41,214 nt of DNA from a virus (taxonomy: Duplodnaviria > Heunggongvirae > Uroviricota > Caudoviricetes), in IMG/VR virus record IMGVR_UViG_2565956710_000004; one strand, written 5' to 3'. Below are positions 2,014-15,471 of the stretch, one piece after another. Position 1 is the stretch's first letter. Each line of letters begins with the position of its first letter. A program made the translations under genes and the position numbers. The notes under the pieces are model-generated. The model worked only from the letters and a program-made list of their open reading frames with translations, did not search any database and was not told where the DNA came from.

Positions 2014-2111
2014 CTTTCATTAATCCCTGAATTGTTGGTTAATACGCTTGAGGGTGAATGCGAACAATAAAAAAGGAGCCTGTAGCTCCCTGATGATTTT
2101 GCTTTTCATGT

Positions 2112-2595: not shown

Positions 2596-2750
2596 ACAGC
2601 CCCCCGTTTATTATTTATATCCTCAGCCAGCCGCTGTGCTTTCAGTGGATTTCTGATAACAGAAAGGCCAGGAAATACCCAGCCTCGCTTTGTAACGGAG
2701 TAGACGAAAGTGATCGCACCTACCCGGATATTATCGTGAGGATGCTTCAT
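2568..2750 (-). CDS. Hypothetical protein translationally coupled to exo (lambda orf60a position)
   Basis: ATG at 2748-2750 overlaps the exo stop (2747-2749) in an ATGA arrangement on the minus strand; 60 aa. Lambda orf60a overlaps exo the same way. Confidence 0.4.
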
Positions 2751-3427
2751 CGCCATTGCTCCCCAAATACAAAACCAATTTCAGCCAGTGCCTCGTCCAT
2801 TTTTTCGATGAACTCCGGCACCATCTCGTCAAAACTCGCCATGTACTTTTCATCCCGCTCAACCACGACATAATGCAGGCCTTCACGCTTCATACGCGGG
2901 TCATAGTTGGCAAAGTACCAGGCATCTTTTCGCGTCACCCACATGCTGTACTGCACCTGGGCCATGTAAGCCGACTTTATGGCCTCGAAACCACCGAGCC
3001 GGAACTTGATGAAATCCCGGGAGGTAAACGGGCATTTCAGCTCAAGGCCGTTGCCGTCACTGCATAAACCATCCGGAGAGCAGGCGGTACGCATACTTTC
3101 GTCGCGATAGATGATCGGGGATTCAGTAACATTCACGCCGGAAGTGAACTCAAACAGGGTTCTGGCGTCGTTCTCGTACTGTTTTCCCCAGTCCAGCGCC
3201 TTAGCATTAACTTCCGGAGCCACACCGGTGCAAACCTCAGCCAGCAGGGTGTGGAAGTAGGACATTTTCATGTCAGGCCACTTCGTTCCTGATCGGGGTT
3301 TTGCTATTACGTTGTGAACTTCTGAAGCTGTGATGACGCCGAGCCGTAATTTGTGCCACGCATCATCTCCCTGCTCGATAGCTCTCACGTCGATCCCGGT
3401 ACGCTGCAGGATAATGTCCGGTGTCAT
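2747..3427 (-). CDS. exo: Lambda exonuclease (Red alpha)
   Basis: 226 aa; sequence [44 protein letters not shown]... is essentially identical to recalled lambda Exo over its full length. Confidence 0.95.
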
Positions 3428-4209
3428 GCTGCCACCTTCTGTTCAGTGGCTTTTTGTTTCAGGAATCCAAGAGCTTTCACTGCTTCGTCCTGTGTCAGTT
3501 CTGACGATGCACGAATGTCGCGGCGAAATATCTGGGAACAGAGCGGCAATAAGTCGTCATCCCATGTTTTATCCAGGGCGATCAGCAGAGTGTTAATCTC
3601 CTGCATGGTTTCATCGTTAACCGGAGTGATGTCGCGTTCCGGCTGACGTTCTGCAGTGTATGCGGTATTTTCGACAATGCGCTCGGCTTCATCCTTGTCA
3701 TAGATACCAGCAAATCCGAAGGCCAGACGGGCACACTGAATCATAGCTTTATGCCGTAACATCCGTTTGGGATGCGACTGCCACGGTCCGGTGATTTCTC
3801 TGCCTTCGCGAGTTTTGAATGGTTCGCGGCGGCATTCATCCATCCATTCGGTAACGCAGATCGGATGATTACGGTCCTTGCGGTAAATCCGGCATGTACA
3901 GGATTCATTGTCCTGCTCAAAGTCCATGCCATCAAACTGCTGGTTTTCATTGATGATGCGGGACCAGCCATCAACGCCCACCACCGGAACGATGCCGTTC
4001 TGCTTATCAGGGAAGGCGTAAATTTCTTTCGTCCACGGATTAAGGCCGTACTGGTTGGCGACGATCAACAATGCGATGAACTGCGCATCGCTGGCATCAC
4101 CTTTAAATGCCGTCTGGCGAAGAGTGGTGATCAGTTCCTGTGGGTCGACAGAATCCATGCCGACACGTTCAGCCAGCTTCCCTGCCAGCGTTGCGAGTGC
4201 TGTACTCAT
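3424..4209 (-). CDS. bet: Red beta single-strand annealing protein
   Basis: 261 aa; [66 protein letters not shown]... matches lambda Bet; 4-nt overlap with exo as in lambda. Confidence 0.95.
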
Positions 4210-4214
4210 CCGTT

Positions 4215-4511
4215 TTATACCTCTGAATCAATATCAACCTGGTGGTGAGCAATGGTTTCAACCATGTACCGGATGTGTTCTGCCATGCGCTCCTGAAACT
4301 CAACATCGTCATCAAACGCACGGGTAATGGCTTTTTTGCTGGCCCCGCAGCGTTGCAAATGATCGATGCAGAGCGATTCAAACAAATGCTGGGGCAGACC
4401 CTTTTCCAGGTCGTCTGCCAGTTCTGCCTCTTTCTCTTCACGGGCGATCTGCTGGTAGTGACGCGCCCAGCTCTGAGCCTCAAGACGATCCTGAATGTAA
4501 TAAGCGTTCAT
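4215..4511 (-). CDS. gam: Gam (RecBCD inhibitor), short GamS-length form
   Basis: 98 aa [21 protein letters not shown]...[10 protein letters not shown] matches the C-terminal 98 aa of lambda Gam. Upstream in-frame sequence still reads ...FRSSAM like lambda but hits an in-frame TAA at 4566-4568, so the 138-aa long form cannot be made. Confidence 0.9.
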
Positions 4512-4586
4512 GGCTGAACTCCTGAAAATGGCTGTGAAACTATTGCCCGGGAAATGCCAGGCTGATTAGGAAAACAGGAAAGGGGG

Positions 4587-4877
4587 TTAGTGATTCAGGC
4601 CGTTGCCGCGTCCGTCGAGAAAAATTTCCACGAGCAAGTCACGGGTATAAGTGCGCTCGATGCCGCGATGCAGATAAAGCCGTCCGCGTAGATTAGCTGA
4701 TGCAGTCCAGGTACCATCTTTGTGTTTGACCAGCATTCCTGGCATGACCGCACCGCGATTAACGGTCTGCGTTCCGTAATGTTGATGAACCATAAAAACT
4801 CCTGCCCGTAAGCTGGGCTGCTGAACATATAGAGACTTCTGCGCGTATTCAGGCGGTGGATGGCCGCCGGTTGTCAT
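4587..4877 (-). CDS. Hypothetical protein, first ORF downstream of putative pL (96 aa from ATG)
   Basis: Frame-0 minus-strand ORF; the track form starts at a TTG (4995-4997) with no SD, so the ATG at 4875-4877 (GAGG about 10 nt upstream) is preferred. No similarity I can recognise to N, Kil or CIII. Confidence 0.3.
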   Translation of the reverse strand: MTTGGHPPPEYAQKSLYVQQPSLRAGVFMVHQHYGTQTVNRGAVMPGMLVKHKDGTWTASANLRGRLYLHRGIERTYTRDLLVEIFLDGRGNGLNH

Positions 4878-5049
4878 AACTAAGCCGCCTCGTTGAAGCG
4901 ACTGAGGTATGAGGTGTTGAGTTGATTTCAGCTGGTCACACCGACGTTCACGCGTCCGCTTCACCCCTCGCACTCCCCGGAGCCTGCTGAAATTCAAGCT
5001 GCGGATCTAAGCGGTCATCGCAACGGTGAATCAGGTGGTTGCCGTATGA

Positions 5050-5150
5050 TTGTGTTGTTGCGATGAACTTATTTAAAACTATAGTTGTTTTATCGTCAAC
5101 AACATAAGTTGTTTTACTGGTTGTTTTAGATATAACTGGTTGTATTTGGG
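5050..5150 (-). promoter_or_regulatory. Putative OL/pL operator-promoter region
   Basis: Cluster of GTTGTT / AACAAC hexamers (GTTGTT at 5054, 5084, 5108, 5120; AACAAC at 5098), including inverted repeats GTTGTT-N8-AACAAC and AACAAC-ATAA-GTTGTT. The same half-site forms the inverted repeat TGGTTGTT-N7-AACAACCA in the cI/cro intergenic region. Lies between the cassette terminator and the leftward early genes, where OL is expected. Confidence 0.35.
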
Positions 5151-5240
5151 ATGGATTTATTTTGTGACTTGAATCGCATAGCGATAACTGAAGCGAGGTT
5201 GTGGTGGTTTTTTGAACGGTGTGTGTGATGAGGGGAGGGG

Positions 5241-5270
5241 CAAAAGAAAACCCGGCACGGTGGCCGGGTT
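5241..5270 (-). terminator. Rho-independent terminator (bidirectional hairpin) ending the cI-linked cassette
   Basis: Perfect 6-bp GC-rich stem CCCGGC(5251-5256)/GCCGGG(5263-5268), extendable by two A-T pairs, 6-nt loop, T-rich tracts on both sides; 5 nt after the stop of the 316-aa gene. Analogous in position to lambda tIMM after rexB. Confidence 0.6.
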
Positions 5271-5274
5271 GTTT

Positions 5275-6225
5275 TTATAGCTCATTGTAAACAGCAATAG
5301 GCTCAATGAAATACTCATCAGAGTCAGGGGCGCAAAATGTTGACTCCAGATCAAAAAGGCTGTCATTCATATTCCAGACTGCACTGCGAATGCCGTTTAG
5401 TTCACGAGCCTCTGATTCCTGATTACCTTCAGACGTTGATGTACGCGTTATCATCCCTACGACTGTGAATGCAGAGGTCGTTCGACGAGAATATAACTTT
5501 ACAAACATTTCTGGACTGATTTTAAGAAAATCTCTGATTAAGAATGAGGTGAATTTAATATCTTGCATTTTTTGTGATATTTCTATTTCGTCACCATATG
5601 CGTAATCTAAAACAGAAGACAGATGCTCAAAGAATTTTTTCTGATTTGGAGATGTTAAATTATCAAGCTCACTTTTAATTTCTGCTTGTCTTGCCTTGAT
5701 AATATTAAATTCATTGGATTTGGGTTTTATCGATTTCAGCATCGATTCTAGACTTTCTAATTCGTCATTTCGATGAACGAAATTAATAGCATAGTTAGTT
5801 TTACAGAAATTCTTAGCGGTATTTTTTAATTTATTATAGTCATTAAATTGAATTGGGCAGGTGATTTTAACAAAGCAATTAGCCTTAATTTTGTTCGAGT
5901 CGATCGGGGAAGTTATGTTAGACAGAATTCCTCTTTTGCTAAGTTCGTTTTCAAATTTCAGATAATGATAATCATGAGGGTTTAACACTGTTGATATTTT
6001 TTTTGTGTCACTCGTTTTACTTGAACTACTTTTTGTCTTTATTTCGACTGCATCTATATTTGAAAGAGTAGACTCTTTATGCTCCATCGCGGATTGAATT
6101 ACGCCCTCAAATAATTGAGAGCTTAAAGAGTAGACCTTCTCATAATCAATATAAATGATATTTTTTAACTGCATACCAATTCCATTAGTGATATTTAAGT
6201 TGTTCTTTCTTTCTTTCAAAGTCAT
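5275..6225 (-). CDS. Hypothetical 316-aa protein, cargo gene in rexAB position
   Basis: Long ORF in very AT-rich DNA with Lys/Asn/Ile-rich codon usage unlike the flanking phage backbone; same strand as cI; followed directly by the terminator. No catalytic motif recognised. Confidence 0.6.
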   Translation of the reverse strand: MTLKERKNNLNITNGIGMQLKNIIYIDYEKVYSLSSQLFEGVIQSAMEHKESTLSNIDAVEIKTKSSSSKTSDTKKISTVLNPHDYHYLKFENELSKRGILSNITSPIDSNKIKANCFVKITCPIQFNDYNKLKNTAKNFCKTNYAINFVHRNDELESLESMLKSIKPKSNEFNIIKARQAEIKSELDNLTSPNQKKFFEHLSSVLDYAYGDEIEISQKMQDIKFTSFLIRDFLKISPEMFVKLYSRRTTSAFTVVGMITRTSTSEGNQESEARELNGIRSAVWNMNDSLFDLESTFCAPDSDEYFIEPIAVYNEL

Positions 6226-6364
6226 CGCTATTTGACTTTCTGACCCTTTCTATGTGCATTAAAGTTTCCTGTGCATTTTTGAGGTTTTTTCTTGAAAACC
6301 ATGCCAATACAGCAGGTATCACAACAGCTATTATGGATAAAATAGTAATTAAGTACTCCATAAT

Positions 6365-6781
6365 TTACTCCTGCGCCACTACTTTGTTATTGATAATAGC
6401 ACACCTGACTGAATTTTGTCCAATGTATAAGGATATACCACAAGTAATAGCGACTAATATGCGAGTCGTATTCATGTTAAGGATGTTATCAGCCAGCATA
6501 ACAATAATGTAAATTATAGAAAAAAGTACAATGAAAACAATCGATATGGTAGTGTTTATAATAATATTGTTTTCAGTTTGCTTGCTGGGTTGGCCCATTC
6601 CGTAATAAATACTGGATATTTGTACGGCAAAGCCAAAACATATCAACTCAGTTATATTGATCAGCTCTATGTTTTTATTAGTGATGAAATAAGCAATAAA
6701 TCTAATAAAGATAGGGATTGCTCCAATGATTACTGTTCCGCACCACCACTTGAAATAATCACTATGAATATTATGTTGCAT
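6365..6781 (-). CDS. Hypothetical 4-TM integral membrane protein, cargo gene immediately downstream of cI
   Basis: 138 aa, ATG at 6779-6781, 48 bp after the cI stop. Four hydrophobic segments (about residues 12-33, 43-62, 74-97, 107-122). Size and topology are reminiscent of RexB (144 aa, 4 TM), but there is no sequence similarity I can assert. Confidence 0.6.
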   Translation of the reverse strand: MQHNIHSDYFKWWCGTVIIGAIPIFIRFIAYFITNKNIELINITELICFGFAVQISSIYYGMGQPSKQTENNIIINTTISIVFIVLFSIIYIIVMLADNILNMNTTRILVAITCGISLYIGQNSVRCAIINNKVVAQE

Positions 6782-6829: not shown

Positions 6830-7519
6830 TTACCCATGCTTCCTGTACGTCTGCGGCATGCTCCCGATGACTTTCCCGAAAATGAATACCCGGTTCATCT
6901 CGTCTTTCTCGATCGGGTCCCACGGTGAGTAACTCTTGTTATCAGAGATAACGAGCAGCTTATCCTTCATCATTTGCAGGCGCTTTACATGGGCTGTGTC
7001 GTCGTACAGAAACGCATAGATACCATCACCGTCGAAAGATTTAACCGTGATATCAACGAACAGAAGATCACCTGGTTCGATCGTTCCTGACATGCTGTCA
7101 CCGCGTACGTTAATGATGCGGATATTTTCTGCCTTCCTGCCATCGAACATGTGACGAGCATCGTCAAACGAGTACTCAACCGAGCGTAGAACTTCTACAA
7201 ACTCACGGTTGATGACTCCCGGCCCGGCACTCACTTCTATATCAAGAACGTCAATCTTAAAGTATTTGGAATGGCTGACAGTGGATTGTATTGGTTGCAC
7301 TGTACTGTCTGACATATTTCCAACGCCAGAAGATAACCATTCTGCGCGCACACCCAAAGCGTTCGCGATCTCCACGATTTTAGTTGTTTGGTTAGCTTTC
7401 CCTGTTTCGATTTTCTGAATAGCAGCTTGGCTAACCCCGACCAAATCCCCAAGCGCCTTTTGTGTAAGGCCTCGCGCTAATCTGGCTTCTTTAAGTCTTT
7501 CTGAGAGTGTTGTTTTCAT
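6830..7519 (-). CDS. cI: CI-type prophage repressor (N-terminal HTH, C-terminal S24 LexA-like autopeptidase)
   Basis: Start MKTTLSERLKEARLARGLTQKALGDLVGVSQAAIQKIE (HTH_XRE pattern). C-terminal ...VRGDSMSGTIEPGDLLFVD... and ...HVKRL... give the Ser/Lys dyad of S24 peptidases. ATG at 7517-7519 has no SD, consistent with a leaderless pRM transcript as in lambda. The track extension to 7585 runs through the operators and is rejected. Confidence 0.85.
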   Translation of the reverse strand: MKTTLSERLKEARLARGLTQKALGDLVGVSQAAIQKIETGKANQTTKIVEIANALGVRAEWLSSGVGNMSDSTVQPIQSTVSHSKYFKIDVLDIEVSAGPGVINREFVEVLRSVEYSFDDARHMFDGRKAENIRIINVRGDSMSGTIEPGDLLFVDITVKSFDGDGIYAFLYDDTAHVKRLQMMKDKLLVISDNKSYSPWDPIEKDEMNRVFIFGKVIGSMPQTYRKHG

Positions 7520-7623
7520 AGTCCAAATGTACAACCAAGGTTTTATTTCATCAAACGAAAATGGTTGTTGACTAAAAACAACCATAGTTTTAACCTTGAT
7601 TCAAATTAACCACGGAGGTTGTT
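7520..7623. promoter_or_regulatory. OR operator / divergent pRM-pR promoter region
   Basis: Intergenic region between divergent cI and cro. Inverted repeat TGGTTGTT-GACTAAA-AACAACCA (7562-7584), near-palindromes AACCAAGGTT and AACCTTGATT, TTGACT (7568-7573) as candidate -35, GGAGG SD before cro. Confidence 0.6.
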
Positions 7624-7854
7624 ATGAACCCAGCTATCAAAACAGCGATCAATATCGTTGGTTCACAAAAGAAACTGGGCGCTGCCTGCGAAGTTTCACA
7701 GCAGGCCGTCTATAAGTGGCTTCACAACAAAGCAAAGGTATCCCCTGAACATGTCGGCAGCATTGTTACGGCTACTGGTGGAGTAGTGAAGGCATACCAG
7801 ATTCGCCCGGATCTTCCGAAGTTGTTTCCACACACCGAAAAGAACGCAGCTTAA
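7624..7854 (+). CDS. cro: Cro-like repressor (YdaS/Cro HTH family)
   Basis: 76-aa HTH protein divergent from cI with strong SD; core ...GSQKKLGAACEVSQQAVYKWLHNKAKVS... has the YdaS/Cro helix-turn-helix pattern. Confidence 0.75.
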   Translation: MNPAIKTAINIVGSQKKLGAACEVSQQAVYKWLHNKAKVSPEHVGSIVTATGGVVKAYQIRPDLPKLFPHTEKNAA

Positions 7855-7923
7855 ATTTCCATTTCACGCTCTTTAACAATAAGCAATCAACTTAACAGTC
7901 AATTCAAACTAAAGGAGTCAATT

Positions 7924-8463
7924 ATGCAACCACTTACATACCAACAGACTAGCGGATTTACCCCGACTGCGGTGATAAATCGTTCTCAAACAAAACAGGC
8001 GCTAGGCCACGAAAAAATCCGTGATGCCGTTCGCGCCTGGTCGGCTGCAGATAATCAGGATGTTGTTGCCGCACTCATTGTGAATGAGTATCGGGTGCAG
8101 GGCGGCGGCACCATCGATTTCCCTGATGATGTCAGCCGTGCACGCCAGAAGCTGTTCCGCTTCCTCGATAACAAATTCGATTCTGAAAAATACCGAAATA
8201 ACGTGCGTGAACTGACCCCGGCAATTCTGGCGGTACTACCGCTGGAATATCGCGGCCACCTGGTTGAGCAGGATAGCTTCATGGCTCGGCTGGCTGAAAT
8301 GGAAAAGGAACTCAGTGAGGCAAAACAGGCTGTCATTCTCAACGCACCACGCCACCAGAAACTGAAGGAGATGAGTGAAGGCATTGTGTCGATGTTTCGT
8401 GTGGACCCGGATCTGGCTGGTCCACTGATGGCGATGGTCACCACCATGCTGGGGGCAATATGA
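7924..8463 (+). CDS. YdaT-family protein (CII-position regulator)
   Basis: 179 aa immediately after cro with AGGAG SD. Segments EYRVQGGG and TPAILAVLPLEYRGHL resemble recalled E. coli Rac YdaT (EYLRQGGG, IPAILAILPRELRHRL). Occupies the cII slot. Confidence 0.6.
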   Translation: MQPLTYQQTSGFTPTAVINRSQTKQALGHEKIRDAVRAWSAADNQDVVAALIVNEYRVQGGGTIDFPDDVSRARQKLFRFLDNKFDSEKYRNNVRELTPAILAVLPLEYRGHLVEQDSFMARLAEMEKELSEAKQAVILNAPRHQKLKEMSEGIVSMFRVDPDLAGPLMAMVTTMLGAI

Positions 8464-10309: not shown

Positions 10310-11956
10310 ATGTGTGAAACCTATATTTTTAGGTTCCGTGACCTAGGAAAAAGTGAAGGATTTACCATCGAGCAACACAATAAAATTGCTCGCCAAGAAG
10401 GGAATGTTTGGTGGGGGTGGTGGGCTAAATCTGGTGAGCGTTTCCCATCACTGGAACTAAAAAATGCGGCAGAAAAAAATAAACAAATATATTTTTTTGA
10501 TTCAGGGCGGCTTAAATTTTATACCGCTGTATTAAAGGATACTTGCTCGTCAGCTTTAGGGGATATAAAAAAGCAATCTCCTAAGGATGGTCGCAGAACC
10601 CCAGCATATTATAATGAGAATGAGTTGCTGGGATGGTTAAATGTTTCTGAGATTACAGAAATTGATGCTTGTGATATCCTCAAAAAATTCACATATATTC
10701 CATTGGATGCATTGTTTGCAGGTAATAAAGATTTAGATGAGCAACTTTTCAACAAAATTGTCTTTTCTTCAGCTGAATTAAAAAAACAAGATAGAACTAT
10801 TTGGAAGATTAGACCTGCAAATGATAAAGATTTACAGCATGAGTCATTAGCATCTCATTATGTTCCTTATAATTTCAGTCGGAAGTATAGCCAAAAAAAA
10901 GGGGAGTTTATAATTTGGCTTTCGGATATTCATTTTGATGGCGGAAATGGGAAACATGCATTTCCGACACAAGATAATGATCAGCTAAAATGTTTATCCT
11001 CTCGAGTGGTGGAGTTGGCTGGAAAATATAATAATGGGAGTAAATGTGCTGGGTTGGCTATTTCAGGTGATTTGACGTGGCAGTCACAGAAAGAGGGATT
11101 CGAGCAAGCTTTGAATTTTATCAAAGATGTTAGTTCTTCTCTTAGCCTGACAACGGATGATATAATTATTTGTCCTGGGAATCACGATGTAGGTCTGGTT
11201 TCTAAAGATGAGTACTTTAAAATCGTGGGTAAGCCTGTAACGGATAAACCATGGAAAATTCTGGCGGAAAACTACCATAGAGAAAGTAAACTTAATTATA
11301 TAAAATTTTATCGAGATTTTTTTCAAAGGGAACCTGAAGAAAATTTATCACAAGGAAGGAAATTTTTACTAGGTGGCCATAAAGTTGTTGAAATAGCCGC
11401 ATTGAACTCATGCGTATTACAACAAGTAAAAGATTCATTTTTGGGCATGGGATTTGTCGGTGAGCAACAACTCAGTGATGTTGCAAAATCTATGGGATGG
11501 ATGAATGATAGCGGAGGAGATATACTCAAAAAGAAAGGTGTTATAAGAATTGCTATGCTTCACCATCACCTAACTTCTATTAATGAAGTTGAAGATGCCT
11601 ATCTTGATTCAAGATATAGTGTAACATTAGATGCAGAGCGATTATTACGTTGGGTAGTAAGGCATAAAGTTGATTATATTCTGCATGGTCATATGCACAG
11701 AAGTAGTTCTATTACAATAACAAAAAAACTATCTCCGTTAGAACCAGTGACGGATTCAAATCCTGAACATACATTCCAAATTGTTTCTTTGGGAAGTTCA
11801 GGAGTTGTTAGTTCGGAATTGCCAAGTCAGGATTGTGCTAACTATGCATGCGTACTGGATTTTTCTGGCGAAAAGCTAACTTTTAATTTTTTCAAGCTTG
11901 ATAAACAGAGCGGAGAAAAAGTGGCGGCTACTTATATTGTTGAAGGTTTATTATGA
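10310..11956 (+). CDS. Calcineurin-like metallophosphoesterase with unknown about 190-aa N-terminal domain (cargo gene)
   Basis: 548 aa, ATG preceded by GAGGA. Full set of metallophosphoesterase motifs in order: D-x-H (WLSDIHFDGGNG), GD (ISGDLTW), GNHD (CPGNHDVG), H (MLHHHL), GHxH (LHGHMH). Lacks the GDxHG / GDxVDRG / GNHE signature of PPP-type Ser/Thr phosphatases such as lambda NinI. AT-rich codon usage. Confidence 0.75.
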   Translation: MCETYIFRFRDLGKSEGFTIEQHNKIARQEGNVWWGWWAKSGERFPSLELKNAAEKNKQIYFFDSGRLKFYTAVLKDTCSSALGDIKKQSPKDGRRTPAYYNENELLGWLNVSEITEIDACDILKKFTYIPLDALFAGNKDLDEQLFNKIVFSSAELKKQDRTIWKIRPANDKDLQHESLASHYVPYNFSRKYSQKKGEFIIWLSDIHFDGGNGKHAFPTQDNDQLKCLSSRVVELAGKYNNGSKCAGLAISGDLTWQSQKEGFEQALNFIKDVSSSLSLTTDDIIICPGNHDVGLVSKDEYFKIVGKPVTDKPWKILAENYHRESKLNYIKFYRDFFQREPEENLSQGRKFLLGGHKVVEIAALNSCVLQQVKDSFLGMGFVGEQQLSDVAKSMGWMNDSGGDILKKKGVIRIAMLHHHLTSINEVEDAYLDSRYSVTLDAERLLRWVVRHKVDYILHGHMHRSSSITITKKLSPLEPVTDSNPEHTFQIVSLGSSGVVSSELPSQDCANYACVLDFSGEKLTFNFFKLDKQSGEKVAATYIVEGLL

Positions 11957-12789
11957 AATTACTTATTACTGATTTGGATAATACACTGTACGATTGGGTG
12001 AGTTTTTACTCCCAGTCATTTAGTGCCATGGCAGAGCAATTATCTAAGGATATTGATGTGCCTTTGGATACGCTCCTGTCAGAATATAAAACAATTCATC
12101 AGAAGTTTGGTAACTCAGAAAAACCATTTGCTACTTTAGAGCTACCATCTGTGATATCTTACTTTGGAACTAATGATAAAACGATTTTGCAGGAAAGACT
12201 TACTAATGTTTTTCAGGCGTTTAGCACAAAACGTAACCAGACATTAATGTTGTATCCTACTGTAAAAGAAACGCTGGAATTATTGAAGAAACGGGGGGTA
12301 AAAATCGTAGGGCATACTGAAGCTTTGGAGTTTAATTCTTTATATCGTCTGAATAAGCTTGGTATAATTGATTTTTTTGATCATCTTTATACATTAGAAG
12401 ATATTCATAATATCCACCCGAATCCCAAAAATGCAAAAAAAATACCTGTGAAGGATGACTTTGTAATTAGATTGTCCTGCGCTGAGTCAAAGCCAAACCC
12501 TAAATTGCTTGAGCACATATGTTCTTTTGAAGGAGTTAGTGTTGAAGATGCAGTATACATTGGCGATTCTATAACTAAAGATATGTCCATGGCTAAAGCT
12601 GTGGGGGTTACTGCTGTTTGGGCTAATTATGGGCGACAGTTTTCACCTGAATTGTGGAAAGTTTTAGTGAAAATCACACACTGGAAAGATGCAGATGTGG
12701 AGAGGGAGGAACAACTTAGAAAAGCATTCTCCAATGTTAGACCTGATTATGTTGTTAATAGTTTTTCAGAGCTGCTGAATTTGAAATGA
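11953..12789 (+). CDS. HAD-superfamily hydrolase (phosphatase-type motifs) (cargo gene)
   Basis: 278 aa; start overlaps the upstream stop (ATGA). HAD motif I DLDNTL (residues 7-12, DxDxT), motif III Lys in ESKPNP, motif IV GDSITKD (GDxxxD). Confidence 0.75.
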   Translation: MKLLITDLDNTLYDWVSFYSQSFSAMAEQLSKDIDVPLDTLLSEYKTIHQKFGNSEKPFATLELPSVISYFGTNDKTILQERLTNVFQAFSTKRNQTLMLYPTVKETLELLKKRGVKIVGHTEALEFNSLYRLNKLGIIDFFDHLYTLEDIHNIHPNPKNAKKIPVKDDFVIRLSCAESKPNPKLLEHICSFEGVSVEDAVYIGDSITKDMSMAKAVGVTAVWANYGRQFSPELWKVLVKITHWKDADVEREEQLRKAFSNVRPDYVVNSFSELLNLK

Positions 12790-12831: not shown

Positions 12832-13380
12832 TGGGGTTATTTTTTAATTTGGTGATTTTTCCCAATGTTGAGATGTTGTTGAACTCGTGAGTTATATTTA
12901 ACGTATTTGATGTTAATGAAATAATAATATCACAATGCAAGCTCCCTGCATTTTCTTGTAGGGGGCATGCTATTTAGAATAAGCTTATGGTCAAGATTAA
13001 ATTATGAACTGCTATTTTGATGGGCTGTTTATTATATTGGGGTTGTTTTCTTTTTGAGTTTTTATGGTTGAGATGAACGTTTGTTAAATGTTTTAATACC
13101 CTTTGTTACAACATTCATCATTTTTACTGTTTACTATCATGATGTTAGACTGAAATTATTAATTTGTGAAACTAATCATCTAATTTAACAATACAAAATT
13201 GAGATCCAATAATCAAAATGCCATAATCACGTCATCGGAGCCTGAACAACTCCGGTGACTTCTGCGCTAAACGGGGACGTTTATGCGCACATACAATCTA
13301 AACTCTCTTCTCTCTTCACAGATGCAGAAATGCACCTGCGATTCTTTGCATCCAACGTTTGACCTCTGCGGAGGTGAAGC

Positions 13381-14648: not shown

Positions 14649-14785
14649 TGTTTGAGTTTTATATGGCAGAATTTCTTCGCTACTGCTGGATATGCCTGCG
14701 CTTATATCGTTTCCTTGGTTCTGTTTTGACCGATTACCGGATACTGAAGAATTACGCCAAAACACTGAAAGGAGCTGCCGCATGA
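14645..14785 (+). CDS. ylcG: YlcG-like small protein (46 aa, not in ORF track)
   Basis: ATG 14645 overlaps the rusA stop; stop TGA 14783-14785 overlaps the Q start (ATGA). Translation [46 protein letters not shown]; rusA-ylcG-Q order as in DLP12. Confidence 0.45.
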
Positions 14786-15471
14786 ATACCCAATATTTAC
14801 AGTATGTCCGCGAGCAACTCATTGTGGCTACCGCTGATTTGAGCGGAGCAACGAAAGGCCAGCTTGAAGCCTGGCTGGAGCATGCACAATTTGATACTGG
14901 TACATACAAACGAAGGAAGCCGCGCATTCTGGATGAGGTAACTGGCAGAATGATTATGCTGGATAATCCGCTGATTTCCGGTAAGCAGTCGTACGCAAAA
15001 GGTTCATCCATTGCACTGGTCAGCCAGGTTGAGTTCTCAACCTCGTCATGGCGCCGCGCGGTTCTGTCTCTCGATGAACATCAGAAAGCGTGGTTGCTGT
15101 GGAGTTACAGCGAAAGTGTTCGCTGGGAGCATCAGGTTGCCATAACGCAGTGGGCATGGAACGAGTTTAAGACTCTGTTAGGTACAAGAAAAATTGCCAG
15201 TAAGACACTGGAACGCTTAAAGAAGTTGATCTGGCTGGCAGCACAGGATGTGAAGAGCGAGCTGGCTGGACGTGAGACTTATGAATACCGGGAACTGGCA
15301 TCACTGGTGGGAGTGACATCAAAAAACTGGTCTGAGACATTCACTGAACGCTGGGTTGCAATGAAGCACATTTTTCTACAGCTTGATAGCGAAGCTTTAT
15401 TGCTTGTAACGAGAACACGTTCAAAGCAAAAGGCGACATTTTCACAGCAAAGTATTGCAAAACTGGATTAA
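14782..15471 (+). CDS. Q: Putative late-gene antiterminator Q (non-lambda type)
   Basis: 229 aa from ATG 14782 (AAAGGAG SD), last gene before the late promoter/terminator region and lysis cassette. No similarity to lambda Q; call is from position and size. Confidence 0.55.
   Translation: MNTQYLQYVREQLIVATADLSGATKGQLEAWLEHAQFDTGTYKRRKPRILDEVTGRMIMLDNPLISGKQSYAKGSSIALVSQVEFSTSSWRRAVLSLDEHQKAWLLWSYSESVRWEHQVAITQWAWNEFKTLLGTRKIASKTLERLKKLIWLAAQDVKSELAGRETYEYRELASLVGVTSKNWSETFTERWVAMKHIFLQLDSEALLLVTRTRSKQKATFSQQSIAKLD

What the first reader, a model, noticed from the sequence alone, without database searches (positions are those of the whole stretch)
4566..5250. No recognisable N, kil or cIII: lambda identity ends abruptly upstream of gam, and the first pL gene is unknown
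exo, bet and the GamS-length gam match lambda closely, and the upstream in-frame sequence still reads ...FRSSAM like lambda Gam. But an in-frame TAA at 4566-4568 closes the frame (no 138-aa Gam), and from there to the putative OL cluster (5050-5150) I find no ORF resembling N (arginine-rich MDAQTRRRERRAEKQ...), Kil, CIII, Ral or SieB. The only sizeable ORFs (4587-4877 frame 0; 4595-4828 alternative frame) are unlike anything I recognise. Either antitermination here uses a different N analogue or a cis-acting RNA (HK022 put-like), or this prophage is defective for delayed-early expression. The TTG-initiated 136-aa form has an arginine-rich N-terminus (RLRGVRGVKRTRERR) that could in principle be an RNA-binding motif, but it lacks a Shine-Dalgarno.
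Basis: partly seen in the sequence, partly recalled or inferred. Interest (0 to 1): 0.55.

Follow-up and report, generated by a model that had tools for sequence, protein, structure and literature searches.

The report
N-less pL leader: Kil plus structured RNAs
The "unknown first gene" is an ordinary Rac/phi80-type Kil cell-division inhibitor, but the phage really has no N protein, and where sister phages carry an N site or a put antiterminator RNA its leader carries a conserved, unannotated 96-base folded RNA found in about 40% of complete E. coli genomes.

Summary

**What holds**
- Lambda identity stops at 4593.
- A TAA at 4566-4568 closes the long Gam frame.
- Nothing in the window resembles lambda N, Kil, CIII, Ea10, Ral or SieB.

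**What does not hold**
- The ORF is recognisable. Its last 68 codons (4793-4587, AGGAG Shine-Dalgarno) are a KilR/phi80-type Kil.
- The arginine-rich "N-like" N-terminus is a translation artefact. It has stops in the sister clade and frameshifts in close variants.

**What lies between pL and kil**

pL starts at about 5064. It is followed by a roughly 270-nt leader with two conserved structured RNAs:
- "X" (5019-4924), with two domains and three compensatory pairs.
- A hairpin/uORF cassette (4913-4794). It is also present in phi80, HK639, HK225 and more than 120 viral contigs, and has seven covarying pairs.

**Why X looks like an antitermination element**
- In related leaders with identical flanks, the X slot holds either putL (HK639) or nutL plus N (phi80).
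- X, put and N never co-occur.
- X phages have strong intrinsic terminators downstream.
- Plaque-forming phages share this layout.

X is therefore most likely a cis-acting early antitermination element that is unrelated in sequence to put. This is inferred, not shown. The prophage is not defective on this count.

The parts
4215..4511 (-). gam, short (98-aa, GamS-length) form
   Evidence: Pfam PF06064 Gam, E = 6e-64. It is 86% identical to lambda Gam residues 19-138.
4566..4568 (-). In-frame stop that closes the long (138-aa) Gam frame
   Evidence: Translation of 4215-4586 on the minus strand.
4587..4793 (-). kil: 68-aa KilR/phi80-type cell-division inhibitor and first gene of the pL operon. 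Lambda homology ends at 4593, at its 3' end.
   Evidence: PHROG 294, E = 6e-38. NCBIfam NF008465, E = 4e-16, covering the whole model. phi80 Kil, E = 7e-12. PGAP calls the 68-aa form in a relative. Homologues from other genera begin at MVHQHYG.
4799..4803 (-). AGGAG Shine-Dalgarno, 5 nt upstream of the kil ATG (4793-4791)
   Evidence: Read directly from the sequence.
4794..4913 (-). Conserved intergenic hairpin/uORF cassette. Components:
- hairpin 1 at 4912-4874, which sequesters the uORF AUG (4877-4875)
- invariant hairpin GGCGG-CCAUCCA-CCGCC at 4868-4852
- conserved block GCGCAGAAGUCU at 4844-4833
- hairpin 3 at 4818-4804, just before the kil Shine-Dalgarno

In this lineage the uORF (MTTGGHPPP...) runs in frame into kil, giving the 96-aa ORF.
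   Evidence: Homologous blocks occur in phi80, HK639 and HK225 and in more than 120 IMG/VR contigs, in front of many different genes. Seven pairs change on both sides; 96% of cells are paired against 28-51% in slid controls. Folding z = -4.4.
4924..5019 (-). X: a 96-nt conserved two-domain leader RNA and candidate cis-acting antitermination element
   Evidence: - A second clade, 82% identical by blastn, sits behind many different operator types.
- RNAalifold predicts 22 pairs. Three are compensatory, four are wobble-preserving and one cell is broken.
- Both clades give the same minimum-energy architecture independently.
- It occupies the slot held by putL or nutL in leaders with shared flanks.
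- It is mutually exclusive with put and N.
- There is one copy in the window.
5017..5064 (-). 5' leader hairpin (AUCGCAAC...GUUGCGAU), starting at the inferred transcript start
   Evidence: Fold of -12.8 kcal/mol, z = -3.2. It is specific to the window-type lineage.
5066..5150 (-). pL/OL. Inferred -35 TTGACG (5099-5094), 17-nt spacer, -10 TTAAAT (5076-5071), start at about 5064. Operator repeats are built on ACAAC/GTTGT.
   Evidence: A 19-nt operator is shared with OR (I1). The geometry matches pL of the sister clade and of HK639/phi80. The promoter is inferred: the consensus scan did not list it, because the -10 matches only 4 of 6.
5151..5248 (-). C-rich, G-poor spacer upstream of OL, conserved across immunity types
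   Evidence: Alignment of 65 distinct relatives. Function unknown; a rut-like insulator is only a guess.
5249..5270 (.). Bidirectional intrinsic terminator ending the cI-cargo operon (lambda tIMM position)
   Evidence: Terminator scan: 8 pairs, 6 of them G-C.
2073..2091 (-). Terminator-like hairpin (8-bp stem plus U6) in the left operon, upstream of traR-like, xis and int
   Evidence: Terminator scan. Conserved in 71 of 80 X-bearing loci, 2.8-3.4 kb downstream of X.

Best explanation
The interval is the early-left control region of a very common lambdoid prophage family that has no N gene. In the best-matching E. coli relative the prophage lies next to icd.

**Shown**
- Reading leftward, pL is followed by a roughly 270-nt untranslated leader and then kil. 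Kil is a 68-aa KilR/phi80-type cell-division inhibitor. It stands where lambda has kil-cIII-ea10-ral-sieB-N, and the junction with lambda sequence lies exactly at its stop codon.
- The leader has three parts: a 5' hairpin, a 96-nt two-domain structured RNA (X, 5019-4924), and a 120-nt hairpin/uORF cassette (4913-4794).
- The same cassette sits after the first leftward terminator in phi80, HK639, HK225 and many other phages.

**Inferred**
- X is made as the first structured part of every pL transcript. It acts in cis on the transcribing RNA polymerase as a processive antitermination element, doing the job that nutL plus N does in phi80 and lambda and that putL does in HK639 and HK022.
- This would let pL transcription read through downstream terminators. 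In the window the candidate is the conserved hairpin at 2091-2073, which lies before xis and int. In the sister clade, strong terminators lie 0.7-1.9 kb downstream of X.
- The cassette hairpin sequesters the uORF start codon. It probably sets or couples translation of the next gene, here kil.

Whether X works alone, as put does, or needs host Nus factors is not known.
For: **Kil identity and start site:**

**No N**
- tblastn with lambda and phi80 N finds nothing meaningful.
- The only antiterminator-family protein found among the ten window ORFs scanned against PHROGs is Q-like, at 14692-15471.
- PGAP annotation of a relative lists only QuuD.

**X is a selected RNA structure on the pL-sense strand**
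- Two clades align without gaps over 96 nt.
- None of the 19 differences breaks a predicted pair, and three pairs are compensatory (20-39, 21-38, 65-76).
- Within-clade changes at paired sites are wobble-preserving in 4 of 5 cases.
- The G-U pairs argue for this strand.
- The leader is conserved while the operators beside it vary in about 40% of relatives.

**Slot equivalence**
- The sister X clade, HK639 and phi80/HK225 share the same first roughly 52 nt of leader. The X clade and HK639 also share the 3' flank.
- Between these flanks lies X, putL, or boxA plus boxB followed by N.
- Among leaders with that shared start there are 43 boxA type, 14 more with a boxA variant by my reading of the printed sequences, 37 put and 13 X.

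**Mutual exclusivity**
- 101 loci have X only, 44 have put only, and none has both.
- No X or put locus has an N homologue.

**Need for antitermination**
- In the sister clade a canonical terminator, for example ACCCGCTCCGGCGGGTTTTTT, lies 0.7-1.9 kb downstream of X, ahead of kil and the genes beyond it.
- The genes between X and that terminator are variable and not N-like: HNH endonuclease, TerB-like, and unknowns.
- In the window lineage a terminator-like hairpin is conserved in 71 of 80 loci.

**Parallel short forms:** both X and put occur fused directly to the cassette, at distances of 100 and 77 nt.

**Viability:** deposited phage genomes, several with a named laboratory host strain, have this layout.
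Against: - There is no experimental evidence of any kind for X.
- The folding energy of X is not better than shuffles (z = -0.05 in the window, -1.6 in the sister clade).
- The covariation rests essentially on one split between two clades, so there are few independent events.
- Helices 1 and 3 never vary, so they are untested.
- Only one copy of X exists per phage, and none lies in the rightward operon. HK022 has both putL and putR.
- In the window itself no canonical terminator lies between X and gam/bet/exo.
- X was found only in E. coli-type phages. Kil-bearing prophages of other genera lack it.
- Sharing a slot does not prove sharing a function.
Confidence: 0.5

Rival explanations
1. There is no processive antitermination. 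This phage family is simply N-independent, like lambda variants that have lost their early terminators. X serves another leader function: mRNA stability or processing, protection from Rho, or control of translation or of pL transcript fate.
For: - No canonical terminator lies between X and gam/bet/exo in the window.
- The folding energy of X is unexceptional.
- X is single-copy and absent from the rightward operon.
- The downstream cassette shows that these leaders do carry translation-control structures.
Against: - Sister-clade phages have strong intrinsic terminators between X and kil and the downstream left-operon genes, and no N.
- X sits exactly where put or nut sits between shared flanks, and never together with them.
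- A terminator-like hairpin ahead of xis and int is conserved in 71 of 80 loci.
Confidence: 0.25
2. X is a nut-type recruitment site. It binds a trans-acting factor: host Nus proteins, or a phage protein encoded elsewhere that has not been recognised. That factor, not the RNA alone, modifies RNA polymerase.
For: - The invariant 5' edge of X (CCGCUUAGA) faintly resembles boxA (CGCUCUUA), matching 5 of 8 positions by my own reading of the sequence.
- A near-consensus boxA (CGCTCTTTAACAA, 7868-7880) with no boxB hairpin lies between cro and the ydaT-like gene.
- Two short blocks are shared between the pL leader and that spacer (I10 and I19).
Against: - No boxA within one mismatch lies on the leftward strand of any X locus.
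- The pR boxA accompanies only this cro type, in 38 of 91 X loci.
- No conserved protein neighbour of X exists, and the immunity regions next to X are highly variable.
- There is no lambda or phi80 N homologue.
Confidence: 0.17
3. One reading: the TTG-initiated 136-aa protein, with its arginine-rich N-terminus, is an RNA-binding antiterminator fused to the downstream ORF.
For: The frame is open in the window, and the motif KRTRERR resembles an arginine-rich motif.
Against: - The same frame has two stops in the sister clade.
- Variants L006 and L008 carry 1-nt indels.
- There is no Shine-Dalgarno.
- Kil homologues of other genera lack the extension.
- Variants L142, L188 and L197 put even the 96-aa uORF out of frame with kil.
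- The sequence is explained by RNA pairing constraints.
Confidence: 0.02
4. The prophage is defective for delayed-early expression because N and its neighbours were deleted.
For: N, cIII, ral, sieB and ea10 are absent.
Against: - The same layout occurs in at least 15 deposited phage genomes, several with a named laboratory E. coli host strain.
- It also occurs in 2,021-2,210 of 5,426 complete E. coli genomes, at 90-99% identity.
- The leader is conserved more tightly than the adjacent operators.
Confidence: 0.04

Closest known systems
KilR of the Rac prophage, and Kil of phi80 (FtsZ / cell-division inhibitors)
   Same: There is sequence homology: PHROG 294, NCBIfam NF008465, and phi80 Kil at 39% identity. 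The size is about 70 aa. The position is in the leftward early operon, just upstream of the gam/recombination genes. KilR is described as a dual inhibitor of cell division and elongation (PMC12482147, title and abstract).
   Different: It is unrelated in sequence to the 47-aa lambda Kil. It scores below the curated NCBIfam cut-off (58.9 against 92 bits), so it is a sister subfamily and not KilR itself. In this lineage an upstream uORF is fused in frame, so a 96-aa isoform is possible.
put antiterminator RNAs of HK022 (putL, putR) and HK639 (putL)
   Same: - The position is the same, a few tens of nucleotides downstream of the pL start. In HK639-type leaders the flanking sequences are literally the same.
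- Both are found in phages with no N gene.
- Both are followed by intrinsic terminators.
- Both occur in a short form fused to the same downstream cassette.
- X has a predicted architecture of two stem-loop domains. put is about 70 nt with two stem-loops, acts alone on RNA polymerase through the beta' zinc-binding domain, and putL lies just downstream of pL (PMC9378689).
   Different: There is no sequence or covariance-model similarity. X is longer, 96 nt against about 70-75. No rightward copy exists. Activity, factor independence and the contact site on RNA polymerase are all untested.
nutL (boxA plus boxB) with N, as in lambda and phi80
   Same: X occupies the same slot in the pL leader. phi80 and HK225 share the first roughly 52 nt of leader with the sister X clade. 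The presumed task is the same: read-through of tL terminators.
   Different: X has no boxA, no boxB-like small hairpin, and no N gene downstream.
phi80 region between tL1A and tL1B, downstream of N
   Same: The window's 4913-4794 cassette is homologous to it. In the phi80 record, an annotated Rho-dependent terminator, tL1B, lies at the 3' end of the cassette's span.
   Different: In phi80, HK639, HK225 and nearly all other carriers, the cassette directly follows an intrinsic terminator. In the window that terminator is absent and the cassette follows X.

Membership tests
KilR/phi80 Kil family (PHROG 294; NCBIfam NF008465; Pfam PF27398 on homologues) | Sequence match to the family profile over its full length | tested here: met
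   PHROG 294, E = 6e-38, profile positions 4-80 of 83. NF008465, E = 4e-16, profile positions 1-70 of 73, but below the curated cut-off. Homologues carry PF27398.
KilR/phi80 Kil family (PHROG 294; NCBIfam NF008465; Pfam PF27398 on homologues) | Small protein (about 70 aa) encoded in the leftward early operon next to the recombination/gam genes | tested here: met
   68 aa at 4793-4587, directly upstream of gam. The same position is seen in phi80, HK639 and HK225.
KilR/phi80 Kil family (PHROG 294; NCBIfam NF008465; Pfam PF27398 on homologues) | Inhibits FtsZ or cell division when expressed | not testable with these tools
   Known for Rac KilR (PMC12482147). Not tested for this protein.
Lambda-type N antiterminator | N-family protein with an N-terminal arginine-rich motif, encoded as the first pL gene | tested here: not met
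   tblastn with lambda N finds nothing at E < 0.1. phi80 N gives only one spurious match, E = 0.004, inside bet. The arginine-rich frame is not conserved.
Lambda-type N antiterminator | nut site (boxA plus boxB hairpin) in the pL leader | tested here: not met
   No boxA within one mismatch on the leftward strand of any X locus. phi80 boxA and boxB are visible in the aligned slot but absent here.
Lambda Kil / CIII / Ral / SieB / Ea10 | Sequence similarity to the lambda proteins | tested here: not met
   No tblastn hit with E < 0.1 anywhere in the window.
put antiterminator RNA (HK022/HK639 class) | Sequence and structure match to put | tested here: not met
   Model R2 was built from 11 put sequences. 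It scores known puts at 50-107 bits. The best score in the window is 15 bits at 13078-13155, and there is no hit in 4566-5250 or near pR.
put antiterminator RNA (HK022/HK639 class) | Located in the early transcript just downstream of pL, in a phage without N | tested here: met
   X spans about +46 to +141 of the inferred pL transcript. It takes the place of putL between shared flanks.
put antiterminator RNA (HK022/HK639 class) | Two stem-loop fold | tested here: inconclusive
   RNAalifold and both single-sequence folds give two domains. Only helices 2 and 4 have covariation, and the folding z-score is not significant.
put antiterminator RNA (HK022/HK639 class) | Acts in cis, without protein factors, through the beta' zinc-binding domain to suppress pausing and termination | not testable with these tools
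   Needs reporter fusions, rpoC zinc-binding-domain mutants and in vitro transcription.
Any Rfam family | Match at the family's gathering score | tested here: not met
   Only sub-threshold matches in 4400-5400. Rfam also fails to detect HK639 putL, so this result says little about whether X is known.

The most novel reading that the evidence does not exclude
X is a third class of early antitermination device in lambdoid phages, unrelated in sequence to the other two. It would be a nascent leader RNA that, like put, makes RNA polymerase terminator-resistant without a phage protein. It is present, unannotated, in prophages of about 40% of complete E. coli genomes. It is exchangeable as a cassette with putL and with nutL plus N at one fixed slot in the pL leader.
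Probability: 0.4. Interest if true: 0.8.

Novelty: new variant of a known kind. Interest (0 to 1): 0.6.

Why it matters
put is, to my knowledge (from memory), the only phage RNA shown to reprogram bacterial RNA polymerase by itself. Its structure on the polymerase was solved only in 2022 (PMC9378689).

A second, unrelated RNA doing the same job would give an independent solution to compare. The questions it would open are:
- Does it use the same beta' zinc-binding-domain contact as put?
- Does it have the same anti-swivelling effect?

It would also explain how a very common group of E. coli prophages expresses recombination, excision and Kil functions without N. That group includes prophages of clinical lineages such as ST131.

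The three-way swap at one leader slot (nut plus N, put, or X) is a ready-made natural experiment and a simple design for reporter tests.

Separately, the hairpin/uORF cassette is a widely conserved, strongly covarying element in front of many early-left genes. I found no annotation of it as an RNA element in the records I examined.

If X turns out to have another role, the finding reduces to routine annotation: Kil was mis-recognised and N is absent.

Tried and rejected
- **Rfam scan of 4400-5400 at E <= 10.** Only sub-threshold noise: ALIL at 20.8 against a gathering score of 50 bits, on the wrong strand for pL.
- **HK022/HK639 put homology.** By eye and by covariance model there is none.
- **A second copy of X in the rightward operon (a putR analogue).** None in the window with filters off, and none in 19 related loci.
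- **X in Kil-bearing prophages of other genera (23 GTDB loci).** None found. Their kil upstream regions are not homologous, apart from fragments of the cassette.
- **Two extra IMG/VR scans for new X clades** (CTTGAATTTCAGCAGGR and GAGTGCGAGGGGTGS). Only random hits.
- **A pseudoknot between the helix-2 loop (UUUCAGC) and the 3' tail (GCUGAAA).** Both variable positions stay wobble-compatible on my reading. The structure string I submitted had the wrong length, so it was never counted. It also competes with helix 3, so I left it out.
- **The 77-aa alternative-frame ORF at 4595-4828.** No family match. It overlaps kil out of frame, so I rejected it.
- **Literature.** King et al. 2011 (HK639 put) and Rotman et al. 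2012 (phi80 genome) are not held. Text searches for put-like elements found nothing describing X.
- **PADLOC on the cargo genes at 5275-6781.** No hits.
Full report
**1. Context.** The window is a lambdoid prophage. On the minus strand it carries int (1-1143), xis, exo (2747-3427), bet (3424-4209) and gam (4215-4511). It then has a cI-type repressor (6830-7585), cro (7624-7854, plus strand), a YdaT-like 'cII' (7924-8463), and O and P. In the best E. coli match the prophage lies next to icd. The only antiterminator-family protein found among the ORFs scanned is a Q-like protein at 14692-15471.

**2. Checking the observation.**
- The frame upstream of the gam ATG reads ...[10 protein letters not shown] and is closed by a stop at 4566-4568.
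- blastn against lambda 32.7-35.7 kb gives one 96% match, covering window 4099-4593, and nothing beyond it.
- tblastn with lambda N, Kil, CIII, Ea10, Ral, orf28 and SieB gives no hit with E < 0.1.
- The 5050-5150 repeats are real operators. A 19-nt sequence at 5073-5091 recurs beside cro at 7575-7593.

**3. The ORF is Kil.**
- The 136-aa reading matches PHROG 294 'Kil protein for bacterial septation inhibition' (E = 6e-38), but only over residues 60-136.
- It matches the whole 73-residue NCBIfam model NF008465 (named 'FtsZ inhibitor protein') over residues 69-136. The E-value is 4e-16, below the curated cut-off.
- phi80 Kil aligns at 39% identity, E = 7e-12.
- PGAP annotates the 68-aa form in a relative.
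- Homologues from Enterobacter, Klebsiella and Salmonella begin at MVHQHYG or carry unrelated extensions.
- The ATG at 4793 has an AGGAG Shine-Dalgarno 5 nt upstream.

Lambda homology ends within a few bases of the kil stop codon. A KilR-type kil therefore sits where lambda has kil, and everything from cIII to N is absent. Rac KilR is described as a dual inhibitor of cell division and elongation (PMC12482147).

**4. The arginine-rich 'N-like' frame is an artefact.**
- The sequence RLRGVRGVKRTRERR is encoded by 4990-4945, inside a conserved RNA element (section 6).
- In the sister clade of that element, the same frame has two stop codons.
- Close variants carry 1-nt indels there (L006 and L008).
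- Even the 96-aa ATG form is not conserved as a fusion. Variants L142, L188 and L197 put the upstream ORF out of frame with kil.

**5. The module is common and belongs to live phages.**
- The 769-bp stretch 4512-5280 is at least 80% covered in 2,021 of 5,426 complete E. coli genomes.
- The 156-nt 5' leader is in 2,210 genomes, with no annotated feature under any of the 12 hits listed.
- Fifteen deposited phage genomes have the same gam-kil-leader-pL arrangement and no annotated N. Several record a laboratory E. coli strain as host. This removes the 'defective prophage' option.
- Among 65 distinct relatives, the operator segment differs in about 40% of sequences. The leader and the 100 nt upstream of OL are nearly constant.

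**6. Element X (5019-4924).**
- A blastn of the 5' leader against all loci held so far found an 82%-identical copy in L178. A pattern scan found 14 more loci of this sister clade. They lie behind at least five different operator/promoter types.
- The two clades align over 96 nt without gaps. None of the 19 differences breaks a predicted pair.
- RNAalifold gives two domains and 22 pairs. Pairs 20-39, 21-38 and 65-76 changed on both sides. Four further pairs show wobble-preserving single changes. One singleton breaks a pair.
- Each clade's own minimum-energy fold gives the same architecture.
- The G-U pairs place the structure on the pL-sense strand.

Weak points:
- The covariation is essentially one split between two clades.
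- Helices 1 and 3 never vary.
- The folding energy is not better than shuffles (z = -0.05 and -1.6).

**7. What X replaces.**
- In the sister clade, X follows a 52-nt leader start (ATCGAAACGAAACATCGACAGCTGAGCGAAGTTAGCCAGCGGCG...). The same start opens the pL transcripts of HK639, phi80 and HK225.
- In HK639 this is followed by the annotated putL-like antiterminator RNA.
- In phi80 it is followed by the annotated nutL boxA and boxB and then by N.
- The X clade and HK639 also share the 3' flank (TTACCAGCAGCTCTTTGCGAGGGGCTGACGG).
- Among leaders with the shared start I count 43 boxA type, 14 more that carry a boxA variant on my reading of the printed sequences, 37 put and 13 X.
- Across all loci, 101 have X only, 44 have put only, and none has both. 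No X or put locus has a lambda or phi80 N homologue.
- In the sister clade a canonical intrinsic terminator lies 0.7-1.9 kb downstream of X on the same strand, ahead of kil and the genes beyond it.
- The genes between X and that terminator differ from phage to phage. They include an HNH endonuclease, a TerB-like protein and unknowns, and none is N-like.
- Both X and put also occur fused directly to the downstream cassette, at 100 and 77 nt. The X version of this short form is the window's arrangement.
- In the window lineage, a terminator-like hairpin (8-bp stem plus U6) at 2091-2073 lies before the traR-like gene, xis and int. It is conserved in 71 of 80 loci.

**8. X is not put.**
- A covariance model built from 11 put sequences scores HK022 putL at 94 bits, HK022 putR at 50 bits, and HK639-type puts at 94-107 bits.
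- With filters off, its best hit in the window is 15 bits, at 13078-13155.
- Rfam finds nothing above threshold. Rfam also misses HK639 putL, so its silence carries no weight.
- X is single-copy in the window and in 19 related loci.

**9. The cassette (4913-4794).**
- A distant blastn of the leader hit phi80 (just after N and tL1A), HK639 and HK225.
- A pattern scan returned more than 120 IMG/VR contigs.
- The anatomy, in order, is:
  - in nearly all carriers, an intrinsic terminator, which is absent in the window
  - UCAUACCU
  - a roughly 9-bp helix with many alternative sequences
  - the invariant UUAUGACAACCGGCGGCCAUCCACCGCC, whose AUG is paired with the UCAUA upstream
  - a variable stretch
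  - GCGCAGAAGUCU..GUUC
  - a second variable hairpin
  - the Shine-Dalgarno and start of whatever gene follows
- On 24 variants, 7 pairs changed on both sides. 96% of cells pair, against 28-51% when the partners are slid. Folding z is -4.4.
- The conserved GAAGUCU block is read in different frames in different phages (my reading). Conservation is therefore at the RNA level, although the short ORF (MTTGGHPP...) may well be translated.
- The function is unknown. The most likely roles are control or coupling of translation of the next gene, or ribosome loading after the terminator.

**10. Mechanism and weighting.**

Shown:
- Kil identity.
- Absence of N.
- Two conserved RNA structures in the leader.
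- The slot equivalence, and the mutual exclusivity with put and N.

Inferred:
- pL position and transcript start.
- X acts in cis on RNA polymerase to suppress termination.

**11. Novelty.**
- Kil is already known and routinely annotated.
- The absence of N in some lambdoid phages is known. A 2025 paper makes the same guess, put-like antitermination, for an N-less phage (PMC12315714).
- X itself is not annotated in any record I saw, is not in Rfam, and did not turn up in my text searches. The key HK639 paper could not be read, so prior description cannot be excluded.
- I rate the finding as a new variant of a known kind.

Noticed in passing
window 4794-4913 (minus strand); also L111 ~2995-3190, L109 ~2715-2835, L110 ~3375-3500, L112-L231: A hairpin/uORF cassette is widely conserved and strongly covaries. 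It has the invariant sequence UUAUGACAACCGGCGGCCAUCCACCGCC and the uORF MTTGGHPPP. It sits directly after the first leftward terminator and in front of many different genes. I saw no annotation of it as an RNA element.
   Followed up: partly
window 7868-7880 (plus strand): A near-consensus boxA (CGCTCTTTAACAA) lies between cro and the ydaT-like gene, with no boxB hairpin after it, in a phage that has no N. It goes with this cro type only: 38 of 91 X-bearing loci.
   Followed up: partly
window 4989-5003 vs 7845-7859, and 4915-4927 vs 7885-7897: Two short colinear blocks are shared between the pL leader and the cro-ydaT spacer: CGCAGCTT(G/A)AATTTC and AATCAACT(C/T)AACA. They could be remnants of paired nutL/nutR flanks, or chance (I10 and I19).
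   Followed up: no
window 5275-6781 (minus strand): The cargo at the lambda rexAB position is a 316-aa DUF6414 protein plus two small hydrophobic ORFs of 58 and 138 aa. None has a PADLOC hit. Relatives carry other cargo in this position, for example GevA/GevT in PhiR47_2. This is a possible uncharacterised exclusion or defence module.
   Followed up: partly
window 10310-12789 (plus strand): A two-gene insert lies between P and the nin region. PGAP names the genes misA (anti-phage phosphoesterase) and misB in a relative. PADLOC hits an endonuclease effector and a hydrolase.
   Followed up: partly
window 5151-5248: A roughly 100-nt spacer between the cI-operon terminator and OL is C-rich and G-poor on the leftward strand. 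It is conserved across phages with different operators. It might be a rut-like insulator or a recombination anchor for cargo exchange.
   Followed up: no
window 2073-2091 (minus strand): A terminator-like hairpin plus U6 lies inside a small annotated 31-aa ORF, upstream of traR-like, xis and int. It is conserved in 71 of 80 X loci.
   Followed up: partly
L234, L237, L238, L240, L244 (between X and the first terminator): Another recurring inter-gene linker precedes several different genes. It translates as ...RVTTEGK(G/A)M just before the start codon.
   Followed up: no
L233, L237, L239, L240, L242 (just after X): A strong Shine-Dalgarno is followed by a three-codon ORF (AUG AAG CAC UAA) and then a structured stretch, directly downstream of X.
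   Followed up: no
L109 1559-1637; Rfam: Rfam release 15 appears to have no family for put antiterminator RNAs. HK639 putL gives no hit even at E <= 1.
   Followed up: yes
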